DNA from: a virus
Taxonomy: Duplodnaviria > Heunggongvirae > Uroviricota > Caudoviricetes
Virus record (IMG/VR): IMGVR_UViG_2541047965_000006
Direction: 5' to 3' (one strand)
DNA: 14,693 bases
Positions 1 through 9,000 of this stretch are shown here, in pieces; position 1 is the stretch's first letter; every line of letters begins with the position of its first letter. The position numbers are program-made.

Positions 1-3000
1 ATGCTGATTAGTCTTGGATCTTTCGATGATGTTTCCCTGGCTGATGCAAGAAAACGTCGTAGCGAGTACAGGGCGTTAATTTCGTCAGGAACTGACCCAC
101 AGGATCATGAGCGGCAGAAACGCGAAGCAGAGGCCCGAAGGCAGGGCAACACGTTCGAAAATGTGGCGGCGGCATGGTACCAGATGAAAATCAGCCAGAA
201 TCTGGCCCCCAACACGATTAAGGACATCTGGCGGTCACTGGAGAAATATGTATTCCCGTTTATCGGTAACACCCCGATAGATACCCTTACCGCCCGTCGT
301 TTTGTGGAAATCCTCACCCCTGTTAAGGAGCGCGGCAATCTGGAAACACTGAAACGCGTTTTGCAGCGCATCAATGAGGTAATGGATTACGCCGCCAACA
401 GCGGGATGATTGACAGCAATCCGGCTACGAATGTGCGTAAGGCGTTCCCTTCCCCGACAAAAAAACATATGCCGACTATCAGGCCTGAACAATTGCCGGA
501 ACTTATGCGCGTTTTATCGGTATCAGCGACAGAACGACAAACCAGATTACTCATTGAGTGGCAGCTACTGACCGTAACGCGCCCCGCCGAAGCCTCATCA
601 ACGCGGTGGGATGAAATCGACATGGAAGCACGGCGCTGGACGGTTCCCGCCGGACGAATGAAGATGAGACGTGATCACGTTATCCCGCTTTGTGATCAGG
701 CTATGGCAGTACTGGAAGCCATGAAGCCAATCAGCCATCACCGCGATTATGTTTTCCCGAGCCTGAAAAACCCCAGCCAGCCAATGAACAGCCAGACCGC
801 TAACGCTGCATTACGGCGGATGGGCTATCAGGGCGTTCTGGTGTCTCATGGCCTACGCGCCATATTCAGCACGGCGGCGAACGAGGAAGGATTCGAGCCG
901 GACGTAATCGAGGCCGCACTAGCACACGTGGACACAAACGAGGTTAGACGGGCATATAACCGGAGTAACTACCTTGAAAAACGCATTGTGCTGATGCGCT
1001 GGTGGGGTGAGTTTGTTGAGGCAGCGGCAACAGGTGTGACGCTTGCCAGCGGTAAAAGGGGCATTCGGGCGGTACAGAACTGAACGGACCGCACGGGAAA
1101 TATCAGGACTGTCAAAGAACTGTACGAAAAAACAGTAAAAACGGCGGAAACCGTAGTAGTACGTGGTATAATTACAGCAAATTTAACGACAAGGCCGCGA
1201 GGTATGAGTCTGTTAATATGCAAAGCACACCACCCAAAGCTGAAGGTATGCAACTGGCGCTACTGGTTAACCGTGAGTTCTGGTCAACCTACGACCCTGA
1301 AGACAAAAGCACAGCCCCTTCCAGAAAGGAGGTAATAGATTTCCTGGTATCCCGTGGAGTATCCAGAAATCTGGCTGAAAGCGTCGATAAGGTCGTTCGT
1401 CCGGTAACAATGAAGGCTGGAGGCAGACCAAGAAAATGGCGGTAACACTCCCTGAAGCGGCAGAAATGCCGCTTTTTTTATAAATTCCTTTCAAATCATC
1501 ACGATAAAAAACGGTGGGTACCGTTTAAAAACGGTGGGTACTGTTTTTCCTGTATCCGATGCTTTACCGTATTTCTCAGCGGAATACGCCAGATAACGAG
1601 GAGTACACGATGGATACAATCAGAAAAATCATTGTTCGCACAGAAGTGAAAAAACTCATCAATATCAAATCGGACAGTACGCTACAGGCCATGATTAAGG
1701 CAGGGGAATTTCCGGCTGGTTTTCGTATTGGTCTGCGTCGTCGCGGATGGTATGAGGATGAAGTGCTGGCCTGGCTGAAAGAGCGTGAACAGGAAGCACG
1801 CGGCGCAGTTGCATAAAGGGGGATAAAAAAGGGCATTCAGCAACTGAATACCCTGAATGACAGGAGAAAGCTCAATGGAAGCAATCATGCTACCGCCACG
1901 ATAAACACACTGCAATTTTGCAGGGGTAATTCAGGAACACATTCAGGAGTTTTCAATGAACCGTCCATATATGCCCGTACAGGGGCAGGGCTTCGTTCAG
2001 CCTGAAGCCAGCCAGAGCGATATTCTGATTCGCCACAAAGCAGAGTCGCGCATTGATTCGCGCCTGTTTGCTGAGCGTATCGGAATAAAACACAAAAACC
2101 TTTATTCGCTCATTCAGAAGCACAAAACCGGATTGCGTGAACTGGGCACCCTTCCGTTTCAAACGGAGCGATTAAAAACCAGTCAAAACGGGGAGCGTGA
2201 ACATAAGTTTGCCCTCCTGAATAGCGATCAGTTTGATTACATGTGTCGCATTGTGCGCGGTCGTGATGTGGAACGCATGAACCGCTTCAAGCTGGATGTT
2301 ACGAAGGCATTCGCAAAACATCGCGCCGCTGAACCAGTCCGCCGTGAATATCTGCCAGGCTATCACGAAAGCCGCAACGGACTTAAAGCACTGGGTGCAG
2401 AACGTCACCATTACATCAACCTTGCCCGTACTGAAAATCGCTTCGCTGGACTGGCTGTAGGTGAGCGTCAGAGCGCGGGAGAGCAACAGTTAGGCTTACT
2501 GATAGTCATGCAGAAAATTGAGCAGGCAGCATTTGACGAGGCGATACAGAACGGCATGACACCGACCGAAGCGGTGCGGGAGGTTGCCCGCCGCATGGAG
2601 ACGTTCGCCAGCCTGATGACGTCTGCGCCGTCGCTGGGGGTGAGCCATGCTTAAGAATTTTGCTGCAATTATTCCGGTAGTATCCGGCGCTATTGGTGGG
2701 CGTGAAGCCGCTGTTGTCAGCGCCAGAGCGTTACATTAGGCGTTGGGCGCAGGACGATACCGAAAGTGATTAATCTCGCGTGTAAGCGATGAAAAATGTC
2801 GTCCCAGTTGTCCCACTACTATTTAATTCATTGATTTTATTAAAAACATACTGGAAAAAGTGGGACGACATTACAACATTCTGGGACGACATCGGGGTGT
2901 TTTGGGACGACATGGAGACATTTTGGGACGACACAACGGGTATTAATTACCCTGGCTGAGCACTATCAACATGGCGAGAGAACTGGCGATGGTCGAACGT

Positions 3001-6000: not shown

Positions 6001-9000
6001 TAACGAGCATTACCGCGTGATGCGCTGGACAGATTCGACAACAAACCGGCTTGTCACTATGGCTGTGCCTTGCTGCGGAATAGGCGACAGTGACGGCTGG
6101 CGGTTACTGAAAGCCAACGGGCTTAAAGTCACGACAAACGGAAAACACAGGATCCCCCTGGCTGACTGGATGCAGTTAGGCGGACAGCATGAGGAATGGC
6201 ACTTAAGCACGAAGGCTGGCTGGCATTCTGGCGCGTATATCATGCCGGACGGTTCGGTTATCGGCGAATCTGACAAGCCCGTTTTGTTTACCGGAAAAAG
6301 TGCCGCGATTAACGGTTATTCCGTGGCGGGTACGGCGGATAGCTGGCGCGACAGCGTGGCGCGGCTGGCTGGTGGCAATCCGTTCATGATGCTGGGTATA
6401 GCGACGTCATTATCCGCACCATTAGTCGGGCTGGTCGGTGCTGATGGCTTTGGCGTGCATTTTTTCGAAAACTCCACGGCAGGCAAGACCACAACGCAGA
6501 GCATCGCATCGAGTTTATGGGGCGATCCTGAAGCGCTGCGATTAACCTGGTACGGAACGGCGCTGGGGATAGCTAACGAAGCAGAAGCACACAACCACGG
6601 GCTTTTACCACTGGATGAAATAGGACAGGCAGGCAGTCCACGTGATGTGTACGTATCGGCTTATACGCTGTTTAACGGCTTAGGGAAATTGCAGGGGGCA
6701 AAGGATGGCGGCAACAGAGAGCTAAAAAACTGGCGCACAGTCGCTATCAGCACCGGAGAAGTGGACATTGAAACATTCCTCAAAACCGAGGGGATCAACG
6801 TCAAGGCGGGACAGCTTGTCCGCCTGCTCAATATCCCGATCCAGAAAGCCACGCAGTTACACGGATACGCGAACGGGAAGGATCACGCAGATGCGTTAAA
6901 AGCAGCATGGAAAGAAAACCACGGCGCAGCGGGGCGTGAGTGGATTAAATGGCTGGCAGCCCACCAGCAGGAGGCAAAGGATACGGTAAGGGAACACCGC
7001 GAACGGTGGCGGAACCTGATACCAGAGAGCTACGGCGAACAGGTGCACCGCGTGGGTGAGCGATTCGCCATTCTGGAAGCTGCGCTTGTACTGTCCGGCC
7101 ATGTAACTGGCTGGTCCGTGCAGGAATGCCGCGATGCAATTCAGTATGTATTTAATGCCTGGGTAAAAGAATTTGGCACGGGTAACAGGGAGTTTAAGCA
7201 GATGGTTGAGCAGGCGGAGGCGTTCTTGTCGTCGTTCGGGTTCTCACGATACCTGCCCTACCCGAACACCGACGAGCGCGATTTACCAATCAAAGACCTT
7301 GCCGGATACAGAAAGGGGAGTATCAGAAACGAAGATGACGAGTTCCGCTTTTACACGTTCCCACATGTATTTGAGAAGGAGATAGCCCACGGCTTCAACC
7401 CATCCCACTTTGCACGTGTGTTAAGTGCCGCCGGAATGCTGGAAACGGGTAACGATCGCCGCTACAAGAAAAAGGCGCTGGGCAAGATTGGAGGTAAGCA
7501 GCATGTATTTTACGTGTTGATGTTCCAGCCAGAAGAGGAGGATTAATTTTTTTCTCACGTGTGAGGGTAGAAAGTTGCGGGTTATGCGGGTTATTTCTGT
7601 GGATAAATCAGTATCCATATGATTATTAAAGGAATGACAGGAAAATCGTAACCCGCAAAACACCAAAAATAACCCGCAAAACGGCAGTTATAACCCGCAA
7701 AAGTGCGATCATAACCCGCAGATGAATAACAGGAAGTGACAGCTGCAAACAGCCACGCGTAACCCGCAGAAAAAACCCCGTTTGCGGGTTATTTTGAGCA
7801 TTTTGCGGGTTACGCACTGGCTGAAAAATATACAGGTCATTTTACAACATACTGATATTAAAGGATAAAAAATACTTAGCAGGCTAAGATAACCCGCTAA
7901 CCCGCATAACCCGCACTGTTTTGTATATATAGAGAAAATTGAGGTGACAAATGACCATAAAACGCAGAGACAGAACAGAGCCGAAATATCGTGCGTCAGA
8001 CATGACAGCGAAGCACACAAAAAACCACAATTCTGTGGTGAAGTTCGTATCTGCCCGTGGCAGGCCATCGCTTTTGGTGCCAGGCGAACATCTGCACTAC
8101 TGCGATGAAAAACATATCCCGATCCTGATTGTCTGGAAGCGCACGGTATACGCCGATGTAACATGGCTGAATGACTCGCTGGTATTGATACACCGTGACC
8201 TGTTTGAACGTGAAGAGTTCAAATGTCGTCCCAAAAACACCCCGATGTCGTCCCAGAATGTTGTAATGTCGTCCCACTTCGCGGAACGTGTTTTGAATTA
8301 AATCAATATGTTACGTGAAGTGGGACAACTGGGACAACTGGGACGACATGGTTTTGTATATATATACAAAAAAATAAATTGAGAGGATGAATTTATGAGC
8401 GAAATTACTGTTAAAAATATCTCACCTGCGATAGCTGGCTGGTGGGCGAAGTTCAGAGACGACGACGGCACGGAATGGTACAGCCCGATTGCTGCATGGG
8501 CGCTTTGTGAGGTCAATTATCTCAATACGGGGAATACTTACCGCGAAATCTTACCCGTACTGACCAGTGAACTGGGTATGGGGCCGCACCACTCCGATGA
8601 AGGATATTGCGCATGTCTGTATCTGCCTGATGAAAAGTTCACGCTCTCCGGTGAGCAGGGTTCTTTTGCCTGGTATCCGGTGAACGGCAACAGTGACAAC
8701 CATCAACGTTAAAACCGGAGAGCAGATAGCATGACAGCACAGATAGCCGCTTACGGGCGGCTGGTGGACGACCCACAGGTAAAACAGACCAGCAAGGGTA
8801 CACCCATGACGCTGGCACGGATGGCGGTATCCGTACCATGCCATAACGCAGACGACGGACAGGCGACGCTATGGCTTGCCGTAACTGCCTTTGGTAAGCA
8901 GGCCGACGCGCTGGCAAAGCATCACAAGGGTGATCTCCTGAGCGTGGCGGGTAACATGCAGATAAGCCAGTGGACCGGACAGAACGGCGAGACGCGGCAG

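What the first reader, a model, noticed from the sequence alone, without database searches (positions are those of the whole stretch)
2796..8348. Two homologous iteron/AT-rich modules in inverted orientation about 5.4 kb apart, bracketing the whole replication operon
Module A (2796-2933) and module B (8224-8348) share one architecture: several TGGGACGACA copies at 21-22-bp phasing, a 44-bp AT-rich spacer, and closely packed opposite-orientation copies (TGGGACRAC). They are reverse complements of each other. By eye, 2858-2913 equals the reverse complement of 8223-8279 except for one T indel, while the flanks are unrelated. This repeat family differs from the TAACCCGCA origin at 7576-7915. Two cis elements of the same iteron type several kb apart recall the P4 ori/crr arrangement, where both are needed for alpha-dependent replication. 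Alternatively, a roughly 55-bp near-perfect inverted repeat could mediate inversion of the 5.3-kb segment, or mark binding sites for a second initiator or regulator. Candidates for that factor are the ORF at 7951-8301, whose 3' end is made of the repeats, and the Rha-like protein next to module A.
Basis: partly seen in the sequence, partly recalled or inferred. Interest (0 to 1): 0.72.

Follow-up and report, generated by a model that had tools for sequence, protein, structure and literature searches.

The report
Split relic of a second replication origin
The two inverted repeat modules are the left and right halves of one ordinary satellite-island (PICI) replication origin whose own initiator gene has been lost; a rearrangement pulled the halves 5.3 kb apart around the island's working replication genes, so they are a scar, not a two-site control system.

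Summary
TGGGACRAC occurs 12 times, only at 2798-2932 and 8225-8347 (0.21 expected), and 2858-2913 is the reverse complement of 8223-8279 apart from one T.

The P4 ori/crr reading is not supported. In every other E. coli island examined, these iterons form one roughly 290-nt block directly after the stop codon of a DUF927 Pri-Rep gene. That block has the same mirror layout as the window's own TAACCCGCA origin. Module A joined to module B gives 355 nt collinear with such an intact origin (82.6% identity).

Module A is still preceded by the last 10 codons of the matching Pri-Rep gene (…AQDDTESD*). It sits inside a disrupted antA gene. Module B is fused to a truncated gene.

Iteron class tracks the C-terminal about 105 residues of DUF927. 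The window's protein belongs to the TAACCCGCA class and is only 34-36% identical to the TGGGACRAC class there.

Two islands whose replication region is 97-99.8% identical lack module A. One of them has no TGGGACRAC at all. The fusion ORF 7951-8301 is a singleton among 15 billion proteins.

Verdict: an orphan, split relic origin in a phage-inducible chromosomal island. Interest is modest.

The parts
2647..2749 (+). 5' part of a disrupted antA/AntB-family gene, ending at junction J1
   Evidence: Collinear with intact antA genes in L084 (91%), L086 (97.5%) and L098 (94%). Intact copies carry 137-196 nt more (L098 137, L084 182, L086/L081 196) before the sequence that resumes at 2956.
2746..2775 (+). 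Remnant of the 3' end of a TGGGACRAC-class DUF927 Pri-Rep gene (…AQDDTESD, then stop). J1 is the microhomology GGCG at 2746-2749.
   Evidence: Aligns with the last codons of the DUF927 genes of L001/L003 (…LLAQDHDTESD*). It is 100% identical over 61 nt to L086 7788-7848, where a longer 165-nt remnant survives. An in-frame TAG lies 11 codons upstream.
2776..2958 (+). Left half of the relic origin ('ori1L', module A). It holds a linker, two tandem reverse iterons (2796-2815), a 45-nt 80% A+T spacer (2816-2860), four direct iterons at 21-nt phasing (2861-2933), and centre sequence up to J2.
   Evidence: Window 2746-2958 is collinear with L001 6964-7179 (86%), which is the left half of an intact origin lying directly after the DUF927 stop codon.
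2956..3132 (+). 3' part of the disrupted antA gene. J2 is the microhomology CTG at 2956-2958.
   Evidence: Aligns with L098 4320-4454 (92%), L086 2004 onwards (98.9%) and L081 3376-3498 (90%). The translation …ELAMVERTEQGRAIRQYFIKCEE is the end of an AntA domain.
5417..7546 (+). Resident Pri-Rep (DUF927, 709 aa) of the TAACCCGCA class; the island's working initiator
   Evidence: Pfam DUF927, E = 7.7e-43. The core matches the PDB chain 8tch_A 'Pathogenicity island protein' (4.5e-15) and the Cch helicase 5dgk. The C-terminal domain is 94% identical to that of L002 (same iteron class) and 34-36% to the TGGGACRAC class.
7576..7915 (+). Resident origin ('ori2') made of TAACCCGCA iterons, with the same mirror architecture as an intact ori1
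   Evidence: 11 exact copies. Layout: 2 reverse tandem, spacer, 4 direct at 21 nt, 1 direct, 2 reverse at 21 nt, spacer, 3 direct tandem. This origin type is found in 301 of 5426 complete E. coli genomes. Window 7547-7950 is 100% identical to L098.
7951..8220 (+). 5' 270 nt of 'geneB', the first gene after ori2 in related islands, truncated at junction J3. The open frame runs on to 8301 through the iterons.
   Evidence: 100% identical to L098 9534-9803, where the gene is complete (156 aa) and followed by SSB. 92% identical to L001 7680-7899. The 116-aa fusion product is a one-member cluster on one contig.
8221..8394 (+). Right half of the relic origin ('ori1R', module B). It holds AA, three reverse iterons (8223-8279, the inverted-repeat arm), a 44-nt spacer, three direct tandem iterons (8321-8347), and the TTTTGTATATATA promoter-like element before geneA.
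   Evidence: Window 8234-8700 is collinear with L001 7196-7660 (89%) and L003 (86%), the right half of an intact origin plus the next gene.
8395..8712 (+). geneA, the gene that normally follows a TGGGACRAC-type origin. It came with module B as part of a 499-nt patch (8221-8719).
   Evidence: 100% identical to L086 8001-8325 and homologous to L001 7355-7684. It is absent from L098, where 186 nt of geneB occupy this place. The right junction is homologous, at the SSB start.
2858..2913 (.). Left arm of the 56/57-nt inverted repeat (iterons d1-d3 with their spacers)
   Evidence: Equivalent arms in intact origins are much less alike: the best are 31-34 nt at 87-88%.
8223..8279. Right arm of the inverted repeat. 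It starts exactly at J3. Its innermost iteron (8225-8233) is reversed, whereas the six intact oris mapped, L083 and the window's ori2 have a direct copy at that position.

Best explanation
The window is a Gram-negative phage-inducible chromosomal island (PICI) at tRNA-Pro(GGG). Such islands replicate with a DUF927 Pri-Rep helicase-initiator. That protein binds iterons in an origin lying directly 3' of its gene.

Modules A and B are the left and right halves of one such origin ('ori1', iteron TGGGACRAC). Ori1 belonged to a Pri-Rep of a different specificity class. That gene is gone except for its last 10 codons, which still precede module A.

In the ancestor of this island lineage the relic ori1 lay intact just downstream of the working module (DUF927, TAACCCGCA origin, truncated geneB). 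This is inferred from sister L086, where the Pri-Rep remnant and part of ori1 are still there. In the window a rearrangement left three illegitimate junctions: J1 (GGCG), J2 (CTG) and J3. Formally this could be a tandem duplication plus two deletions, or the re-insertion of a permuted circle. The result places the remnant and left half 5.3 kb upstream inside antA. The right half stays in front of geneA.

The two modules are inverted repeats simply because a PICI origin is mirror-symmetric. The unusually perfect 56-nt arms come from copying of one arm onto the other, by quasi-palindrome correction or gene conversion.

Inferred consequences: the resident Pri-Rep does not use these sites and the island replicates from the TAACCCGCA origin. 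The halves are silent unless an ori1-class Pri-Rep is supplied in trans.
For: Shown directly:
1. Intact TGGGACRAC origins (L001, L003, L076-79; L083) all have the same layout: DUF927 stop, 2 reverse tandem iterons, AT-rich spacer, 4 direct at 21 nt, 1 direct, 2 reverse at 21 nt, AT-rich spacer, 3 direct tandem, TTTTGTATATATA, next gene. L006 holds one comparable contiguous block of 8 copies. This is also the layout of the window's own ori2.
2. A matches the left half and B the right half of L001. A (2776-2958) joined to B (8223-8394) gives 355 nt, collinear with the 360-nt L001 origin at 82.6% identity with 11 gap columns. Only about 5 nt are missing at the break.
3. The window has 12 copies, the same number as one intact origin (9-12 exact copies). 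In the 14 other loci counted, each class sits in one block of about 250-290 nt.
4. A Pri-Rep remnant lies immediately upstream of A.
5. Both inner junctions cut genes. antA is missing 137-196 nt of its middle (depending on which intact allele is compared), and geneB is missing its 3' 186 nt.
6. Iteron class follows the DUF927 C-terminal domain, not the core. The window's core is 92% identical to L001 but its C-terminal domain only 35%. TGGGACRAC-class C-terminal domains are 87-96% alike despite 82-85% cores. At finer scale, Q695R accompanies an A-to-G change in all 11 iterons.
7. Sister islands: L098/L100 (99.65% over 5389-8220) have intact antA, complete geneB and no TGGGACRAC. L086/L088 (100% in several segments) have intact antA, a 165-nt C-terminal remnant, and one hybrid module in front of geneA.
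8. The fusion ORF is a singleton.

From the literature: the E. coli PICI ori lies 3' of pri-rep, with iteron sets flanking an AT-rich region, and was shown to function for EcCICFT073 (PMC6092414). The C-terminal winged helix of SaPI Rep binds the iterons (PMC9371898).
Against: - No experiment shows that the resident Pri-Rep ignores TGGGACRAC. Specificity is inferred from co-variation across 11-19 loci and from SaPI analogy.
- The intact ancestor with a complete ori1 behind geneB was not found, so the order and number of rearrangement steps is inferred.
- The innermost iteron of B is reversed relative to every intact origin. B is therefore not a plain right half, and a copying event must be added to the account.
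- All 12 iterons are still perfect. This would also fit retained function, although the event is evidently recent: flanks are 99-100% identical to those of the sisters.
- The rest of the source genome could not be searched for a co-resident ori1-class Pri-Rep.
Confidence: 0.85

Rival explanations
1. P4 ori/crr-like system: A and B are two distant cis elements that the resident initiator needs, together with or instead of the adjacent origin.
For: Two clusters of one iteron type lie about 5.4 kb apart around the initiator gene, which superficially resembles P4 ori and crr.
Against: - The resident DUF927 has the TAACCCGCA-class C-terminal domain and a complete cognate origin right after its stop codon.
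- L098/L100 carry a 99.65% identical replication module and no TGGGACRAC copy.
- 301 genomes hold this origin type but at most 90 hold any B-like sequence.
- Wherever the TGGGACRAC modules occur elsewhere they are one contiguous origin.
Confidence: 0.03
2. Trans-usable secondary origins or decoys. Each half still has iterons on both sides of an AT-rich spacer. An ori1-class Pri-Rep from a co-resident PICI could therefore bind and melt it. That would either replicate this island (hitch-hiking) or titrate the competitor's initiator.
For: [quoted passage not shown]
- All 12 iterons are intact.
- E. coli genomes matched the window at a median of 2 places and up to 10, which suggests, but does not show, several related islands per genome.
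Against: - There is no sign of conservation. The arrangement is unique, sister L098 lacks the modules, and sister L086 has lost half of them.
- The intact iterons are explained by how recent the event is.
- No co-resident ori1-class initiator could be looked for.
Confidence: 0.08
3. Invertible segment: the 56-nt near-perfect inverted repeat mediates inversion of 2914-8222 and switches the replication operon on or off.
For: The arms are 56/57 identical and inverted, long enough for occasional RecA-dependent exchange.
Against: - No recombinase gene or recombinase-type site is associated with the arms. The arms are origin iterons.
- The assembled orientation is the one collinear with the sister islands and with rightward transcription.
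- Flipping the segment does not restore any known arrangement (reasoned).
- No flipped-isomer fusion protein is in the same 90% cluster. This is weak evidence, because the predicted isomer product differs at about 10 of its 104 residues and might cluster separately.
- The short-read graph cannot tell orientation.
Confidence: 0.04
4. Operator sites for an island regulator, either the Rha-like protein or the product of ORF 7951-8301.
For: Proximity only.
Against: - The ORF is a truncated geneB whose last 27 codons are accidental read-through of the iterons, and it is a singleton.
- Rha/antA pairs occur in about 900 genomes, whereas the iterons occur in at most 90.
- The iterons always accompany one DUF927 C-terminal class.
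Confidence: 0.01

Closest known systems
Replication module (pri-rep + ori) of Gram-negative PICIs such as EcCICFT073 (Fillol-Salom et al. 2018, PMC6092414)
   Same: - Island layout: int, alpA, Bro-type genes, DUF927 Pri-Rep, ori, SSB, PerC.
- The origin lies immediately 3' of pri-rep.
- Iteron sets flank AT-rich DNA.
- There are several Pri-Rep/ori allelic classes.
   Different: - Here a second origin of another class is present without its initiator and is broken into two halves 5.3 kb apart.
- The origins seen here are mirror doublets with two AT-rich spacers and four iteron sets, which is more than the published one-line description.
SaPI Rep/ori (Ubeda et al. 2007; Rep cryo-EM study PMC9371898)
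   Same: - A self-loading helicase-initiator; the PDB hit 8tch_A is named 'Pathogenicity island protein' (4.5e-15).
- A C-terminal domain reads the iterons.
- The origin lies directly after the gene.
- Iterons in opposite orientation sit on both sides of an AT-rich region.
- Initiator and origin match by specificity class.
   Different: - The SaPI iterons are penta- or hexanucleotides (PMC9371898), shorter than the 9-10-nt repeats here; the hosts differ (own knowledge).
- The winged-helix fold of the DUF927 C-terminal domain was not tested here.
Phage-plasmid P4 ori/crr
   Same: Two clusters of the same iteron lie several kb apart with the initiator gene between them.
   Different: - In P4 both clusters are bound by the resident alpha protein and both are required and conserved (established knowledge).
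- Here the clusters belong to a different specificity class from the resident initiator.
- They are contiguous in all other carriers.
- They are absent from near-identical replicating modules.
Long-palindrome / quasi-palindrome instability in E. coli (SbcCD cleavage, template-switch 'correction'; own knowledge, not tested)
   Same: - The arms are far more perfect than in intact origins.
- If abutted they would form a 56-bp hairpin with dG -77 kcal/mol, against -33 and -43 for normal origins.
- The two sister lineages show two different resolutions: separation of the arms, or deletion of one arm between 11-nt direct repeats.
   Different: The mechanism is inferred from end products only.

Membership tests
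PICI replication origin (Pri-Rep-type iteron origin) | Lies immediately 3' of the pri-rep (DUF927) stop codon | tested here: met
   Met in relic form. Module A follows a 30-nt remnant ending …AQDDTESD, TAA and the same 20-nt linker as in intact loci. Intact TGGGACRAC origins all start about 25 nt after the DUF927 stop.
PICI replication origin (Pri-Rep-type iteron origin) | Sets of iterons in opposite orientation flanking AT-rich DNA | tested here: met
   A has 2 reverse iterons, a 45-nt 80% A+T spacer, then 4 direct. B has 3 reverse, a 44-nt 64% A+T spacer, then 3 direct. A+B is collinear with an intact origin.
PICI replication origin (Pri-Rep-type iteron origin) | A cognate initiator of matching specificity is encoded in cis | tested here: not met
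   Only 10 codons of the TGGGACRAC-class gene remain. The resident DUF927 C-terminal domain is 34-36% identical to that class and 94% identical to the TAACCCGCA class. The origin is therefore an orphan.
PICI replication origin (Pri-Rep-type iteron origin) | Contiguity of the origin (one block of roughly 290 nt of iterons) | tested here: not met
   The span is 5.5 kb in the window, against about 250-290 nt in all 8 other carriers with fetched sequence. The hits in all 29 listed genomes are adjacent.
PICI replication origin (Pri-Rep-type iteron origin) | Supports Pri-Rep-dependent replication | not testable with these tools
   Needs mini-replicon or marker-frequency experiments.
P4-type ori + crr pair | Both distant elements carry the iteron recognised by the resident initiator | tested here: not met
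   The resident initiator's origin uses TAACCCGCA. A and B use TGGGACRAC. Class follows the C-terminal domain.
P4-type ori + crr pair | The two-site arrangement is conserved among relatives that replicate | tested here: not met
   L098/L100 and 301 genomes with this origin type do not need it. The fusion ORF is a singleton.
P4-type ori + crr pair | The initiator is a P4 alpha-type primase-helicase | tested here: not met
   The protein is DUF927, related to SaPI Rep/Cch. PICI Pri-Reps are reported as distinct from P4 alpha (PMC6092414).
Site-specific invertible DNA segment | Inverted repeats that are recombinase sites, with an adjacent invertase, and both orientations observed | tested here: inconclusive
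   Inverted repeats are present. No invertase family was found among the ORFs scanned. Only one orientation is on record, and short-read graphs cannot resolve it.

The most novel reading that the evidence does not exclude
Each separated half is still a competent loading site for a TGGGACRAC-class Pri-Rep made by another PICI in the same cell. The island would then have dual replication specificity: its own TAACCCGCA origin plus two borrowed half-origins. It could hitch-hike on, or titrate, a competitor's initiator. That would be a form of cross-talk or incompatibility between satellites that has not been described.
Probability: 0.08. Interest if true: 0.6.

Novelty: new member of a known kind. 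Interest (0 to 1): 0.3.

Why it matters
The direct result removes an attractive but wrong reading. There is no second cis element and no P4-like ori/crr logic in this island.

The positive value is evolutionary:
- The window and its two kinds of sister island give a dated snapshot of how PICI replication modules are replaced. The flanks are 99-100% identical.
- A new Pri-Rep/ori module sits next to the relic of the old origin, and the relic then decays by different routes.
- The C-terminal domain and the origin travel together as a specificity cassette.

The comparison also yielded a testable recognition rule. Gln695 pairs with A, and Arg695 with G, at iteron position 2. This could guide experiments on how these self-loading helicases read their origins.

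Tried and rejected
Searches that gave little:
- One genome-contig scan for two phased iterons. Of 70 stretches, nearly all were chance matches in unrelated phyla. Only L006 (Escherichia sp.) was relevant, and L073 had just two copies.
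- A metagenome-contig scan for the d2-d3 arm found nothing.
- A viral-contig scan found one locus identical in type to L001.
- No complete E. coli genome covers more than 34% of the window. The sisters came only from exact-protein look-ups.

Models tried on paper and rejected:
- Single- or double-inversion histories for the A/B arrangement. Flipping 2914-8222, 2750-8222 or 2959-8222 never gives an arrangement seen elsewhere.
- A plain 'foreign 5.3-kb insertion into ori1'. This was my first model and it was revised. The segment between A and B is the island's own backbone (97-100% identical to L086, 99.65% to L098), and A sits inside antA. The left half moved relative to the backbone, rather than a foreign module dropping in.

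Other negative results:
- The promoter scan of 1400-3700 found no sigma-70-like site.
- The assembly-artefact idea was rejected. J2 and J3 lie within an independent contig and the window has no N.

Not attempted:
- Structure prediction of the C-terminal domain. Co-variation was judged the stronger evidence.

Full report
**1. What is in the sequence**

The pattern TGGGACRAC occurs 12 times, against 0.21 expected and at most 1 in 200 shuffles. All copies lie in two clusters.

- Module A has two reverse copies 9 nt apart (2798, 2807). A 45-nt spacer with 80% A+T follows, then four direct copies 21 nt apart (2861-2932).
- Module B is the mirror image. It has three reverse copies (8225, 8247, 8268), a 44-nt spacer (64% A+T), and three direct copies 9 nt apart (8321-8347).
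- 2858-2913 equals the reverse complement of 8223-8279 except for one T (56 matches over 57 columns). The whole modules align at 83.8% over 117 nt.

The window has no N. It is 100% identical to an NCBI draft E. coli scaffold. An independent short-read contig (L075) spans 2874-8263 exactly, so the two inner junctions are real. That contig ends inside both arms, as expected for a repeat.

**2. Context**

The window is an integrative island next to tRNA-Pro(GGG) and yejM. Its genes are, in order:

- integrase, 1-1083
- AlpA-like, 1559-1816
- Rha, 1956-2654
- Ash, 3611-4687
- DUF4222, 5130-5420
- DUF927, 5417-7546
- SSB, 8731-9177
- ProQ/FinO, PerC, a gpJ-tip-like protein, and antiterminator Q

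This is the layout of Gram-negative phage-inducible chromosomal islands. These have an integration zone, a 'Bro' zone of Rha/AntA/Ash-type genes, a replication zone with a DUF927-type primase and SSB, and a late zone (PMC10111431). In these islands the origin lies immediately 3' of pri-rep and consists of iteron sets flanking AT-rich DNA. For EcCICFT073 the pri-rep-ori segment was shown to replicate (PMC6092414).

The DUF927 core matches the solved chain 8tch_A, named 'Pathogenicity island protein' (E = 4.5e-15), and the Cch helicase 5dgk.

The TAACCCGCA array at 7576-7915 starts 30 nt after the DUF927 stop codon and is the resident origin, called ori2 here. Its layout is 2 reverse tandem, spacer, 4 direct at 21 nt, 1 direct, 2 reverse at 21 nt, spacer, 3 direct tandem.

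**3. The decisive comparison**

In E. coli 2015C-3121 (L001), sequences matching A and B lie 25 nt apart, directly after the stop codon of a DUF927 gene.

Seven intact TGGGACRAC-type origins were mapped: L001, L003 and L076-L079 and the IMG/VR locus L083. All show the ori2 layout given above. L006 (Escherichia sp.) carries one comparable contiguous block of 8 copies.

All 29 listed genomes with A-like sequence have it contiguous with the B-like sequence.

- Window 2746-2958 is collinear with the DUF927 3' end plus left half of L001 (86%).
- Window 8234-8700 is collinear with the right half plus the next gene (89%).
- A (2776-2958) joined to B (8223-8394) gives 355 nt, collinear with the 360-nt L001 origin at 82.6% identity with 11 gap columns.
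- About 5 nt (GTGAC in L001) are missing at the break.
- The window has 12 iteron copies, the number found in one intact origin. In the 14 other loci counted, each iteron class forms one block of about 250-290 nt.

A and B are therefore the two halves of one origin, called ori1 here. They are inverted repeats because this kind of origin is mirror-symmetric.

**4. Whose origin?**

Iteron class follows the C-terminal roughly 105 residues of DUF927, not the rest of the protein.

- The window protein is 92% identical to L001 in the core (residues 147-604) but 35% in the C-terminal domain.
- It is 94% identical to L002, another TAACCCGCA island, in the C-terminal domain.
- TGGGACRAC-class C-terminal domains are 87-96% alike, although their cores are 82-85% alike and their N-termini 45-52%.
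- Other C-terminal variants go with other iterons: TGAGGCAAC, TGGGTGGATA and TGGGACAAG.

Immediately upstream of module A the window keeps …AQDDTESD followed by a stop codon. This is the end of the TGGGACRAC-class gene (…LLAQDHDTESD*), with an in-frame TAG 11 codons earlier.

The cognate initiator is therefore gone, and the resident one belongs to another class. By analogy with SaPI Reps, whose C-terminal winged helix reads the iterons (PMC9371898), I infer that the resident protein does not use A or B.

**5. The junctions**

- Module A sits inside an antA/AntB gene. The 5' part (2647-2749) and 3' part (2956-3132) match intact antA genes of L084, L086, L098 and L081. Those genes carry 137-196 nt between the two parts, depending on the allele. 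The window has the 30-nt Pri-Rep remnant plus the left half there instead.
- J1 has the microhomology GGCG (2746-2749). J2 has CTG (2956-2958).
- Module B is preceded by the first 270 nt of 'geneB'. This gene is complete (156 aa) and followed by SSB in L098. The homology stops at 8220, then comes AA, then the first iteron (J3).
- ORF 7951-8301 is therefore a truncated gene reading by accident through the iterons. Its 116-aa product is a one-member cluster among about 15 billion proteins.

**6. Sister islands**

L098/L100 sit at another att site.
- They are 99.65% identical to window 5389-8220, and 100% over 7547-8220.
- They are 99.2% identical over 8720-10302.
- They have intact antA, complete geneB and no TGGGACRAC copy.
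- Relative to them, the window has 186 nt replaced by the 499-nt patch 8221-8719 (module B, promoter-like element, geneA). The right junction is homologous, at the SSB start.

L086/L088 sit at the same att site.
- They are 100% identical to the window over 947-1943, 5389-6500 and geneA.
- They have intact antA.
- After a slightly shorter geneB fragment they carry a 165-nt remnant of the TGGGACRAC-class C-terminal domain.
- After that remnant come the same linker (61 of 61 nt identical to window 2746-2806) and one module in front of geneA.
- That module has three reverse iterons identical to the window's arm. Its spacer is the reverse complement of the A spacer for its first 31 nt and B-like for its last 13 nt. 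Two tandem copies follow.

From this I infer that the lineage once carried a complete relic ori1 directly behind ori2 and geneB'. The two strains then resolved it differently. The ancestor itself was not found.

A formal path to the window needs three events, one per junction. Either a tandem duplication of [antA@2956 … ori1 centre] makes J2 and two deletions make J1 and J3, or a permuted circle is excised and re-inserted. Inversion-only histories do not work.

**7. Why the arms are so perfect**

- In intact origins the corresponding arms are much less alike. The best are 31-34 nt at 87-88%.
- In intact origins the innermost right-hand iteron is direct, not reversed.
- In the window the 57-nt tract starts exactly at J3.
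- In L086 the copied tract extends 31 nt further.

One arm was therefore copied onto the other, by quasi-palindrome template switching or gene conversion. This is inferred from end products.

If the halves were abutted they would form a 56-bp hairpin with dG -77 kcal/mol. The L001 origin core gives -33 and the window's ori2 gives -43. Long palindromes are unstable in E. coli (my own knowledge). That fits the separation of the arms in the window and the loss of one arm in L086.

**8. Rival readings**

- P4 ori/crr-like function is contradicted on three counts: the class mismatch, the contiguity everywhere else, and near-identical modules without the sites.
- Inversion across the 56-nt arms is possible in principle but has no support, and it would turn the replication operon against the island's rightward transcription.
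- Regulator binding by Rha or by the ORF product has no support.
- The one reading with some novelty left is that each half could still be used or titrated by a TGGGACRAC-class Pri-Rep from a co-resident island, because each half by itself has iterons on both sides of an AT-rich spacer. I put this at about 8%.

**9. Verdict**

The feature is an orphan PICI origin of a known kind, split by a recent strain-specific rearrangement. Interest is 0.3.

The most useful by-products are two. One is evidence that the C-terminal domain and the origin form a specificity cassette. The other is a one-residue/one-base co-variation, described under things noticed in passing.

Noticed in passing
window 5417-7546 and 7576-7915, compared with L086 4910-7432: The window and L086 Pri-Rep proteins differ at only 4 of 709 residues (Y484C, R591K, V668A, Q695R). 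Yet all 11 iterons of the adjacent origin differ in concert: TAACCCGCA in the window, TGACCCGCA in L086/L088. The origin is 81.5% identical in a 99-100% identical context. All nine other TAACCCGCA origins checked have …GGKQHVFYV…, and the TGACCCGCA type has …GGKRHVFYV…. This suggests Gln695 reads A and Arg695 reads G at iteron position 2.
   Followed up: partly
window 7576-7915; L001 7020-7309: These E. coli PICI origins are mirror doublets. They have two AT-rich spacers and four iteron sets (tandem, phased, phased-reverse, tandem). [quoted passage not shown]
   Followed up: partly
window 4256-4332 and 4357-4444 (+): Rfam isrK (51 bits) and C4 antisense RNA (77.6 bits) lie inside the annotated Ash ORF (3611-4687). 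These resemble P4-type CI immunity RNA elements, as reported for the Bro zone of Gram-negative PICIs (PMC10111431).
   Followed up: no
window 10303-12028 (ORF 10347-11999): A 550-aa protein has phage tail-tip and gpJ C-terminal receptor-binding domains. Its 1.7-kb segment is absent from the sister islands L086 and L098, so it is strain-specific late-zone cargo.
   Followed up: partly
window 2135-2177 and 3092-3134: A 43-nt direct repeat (91%) is shared between the Rha gene and the region just after the AntA domain. This fits domain-shuffling among Bro-zone genes.
   Followed up: no
window 12275-12291, 12884-12900, 13579-13595: Three copies of the 17-nt palindrome TTACGAAATTTTCGTAA (one copy is CTACG…CGTAG) lie around the antiterminator Q gene. 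They look like operators or terminators and remain unexplained.
   Followed up: no
window 7919-7938 and 8352-8371: The same TTTTGTATATATA element follows both ori2 and the relic right half, each time just before the next gene's ribosome-binding site. It is conserved after every origin examined and is probably the promoter of the downstream SSB operon.
   Followed up: no
L086 3716-4180, compared with window about 4689: Sisters L086 and L098 carry an extra 154-aa gene, annotated as Icd-like in homologous islands. The window lacks it.
   Followed up: no
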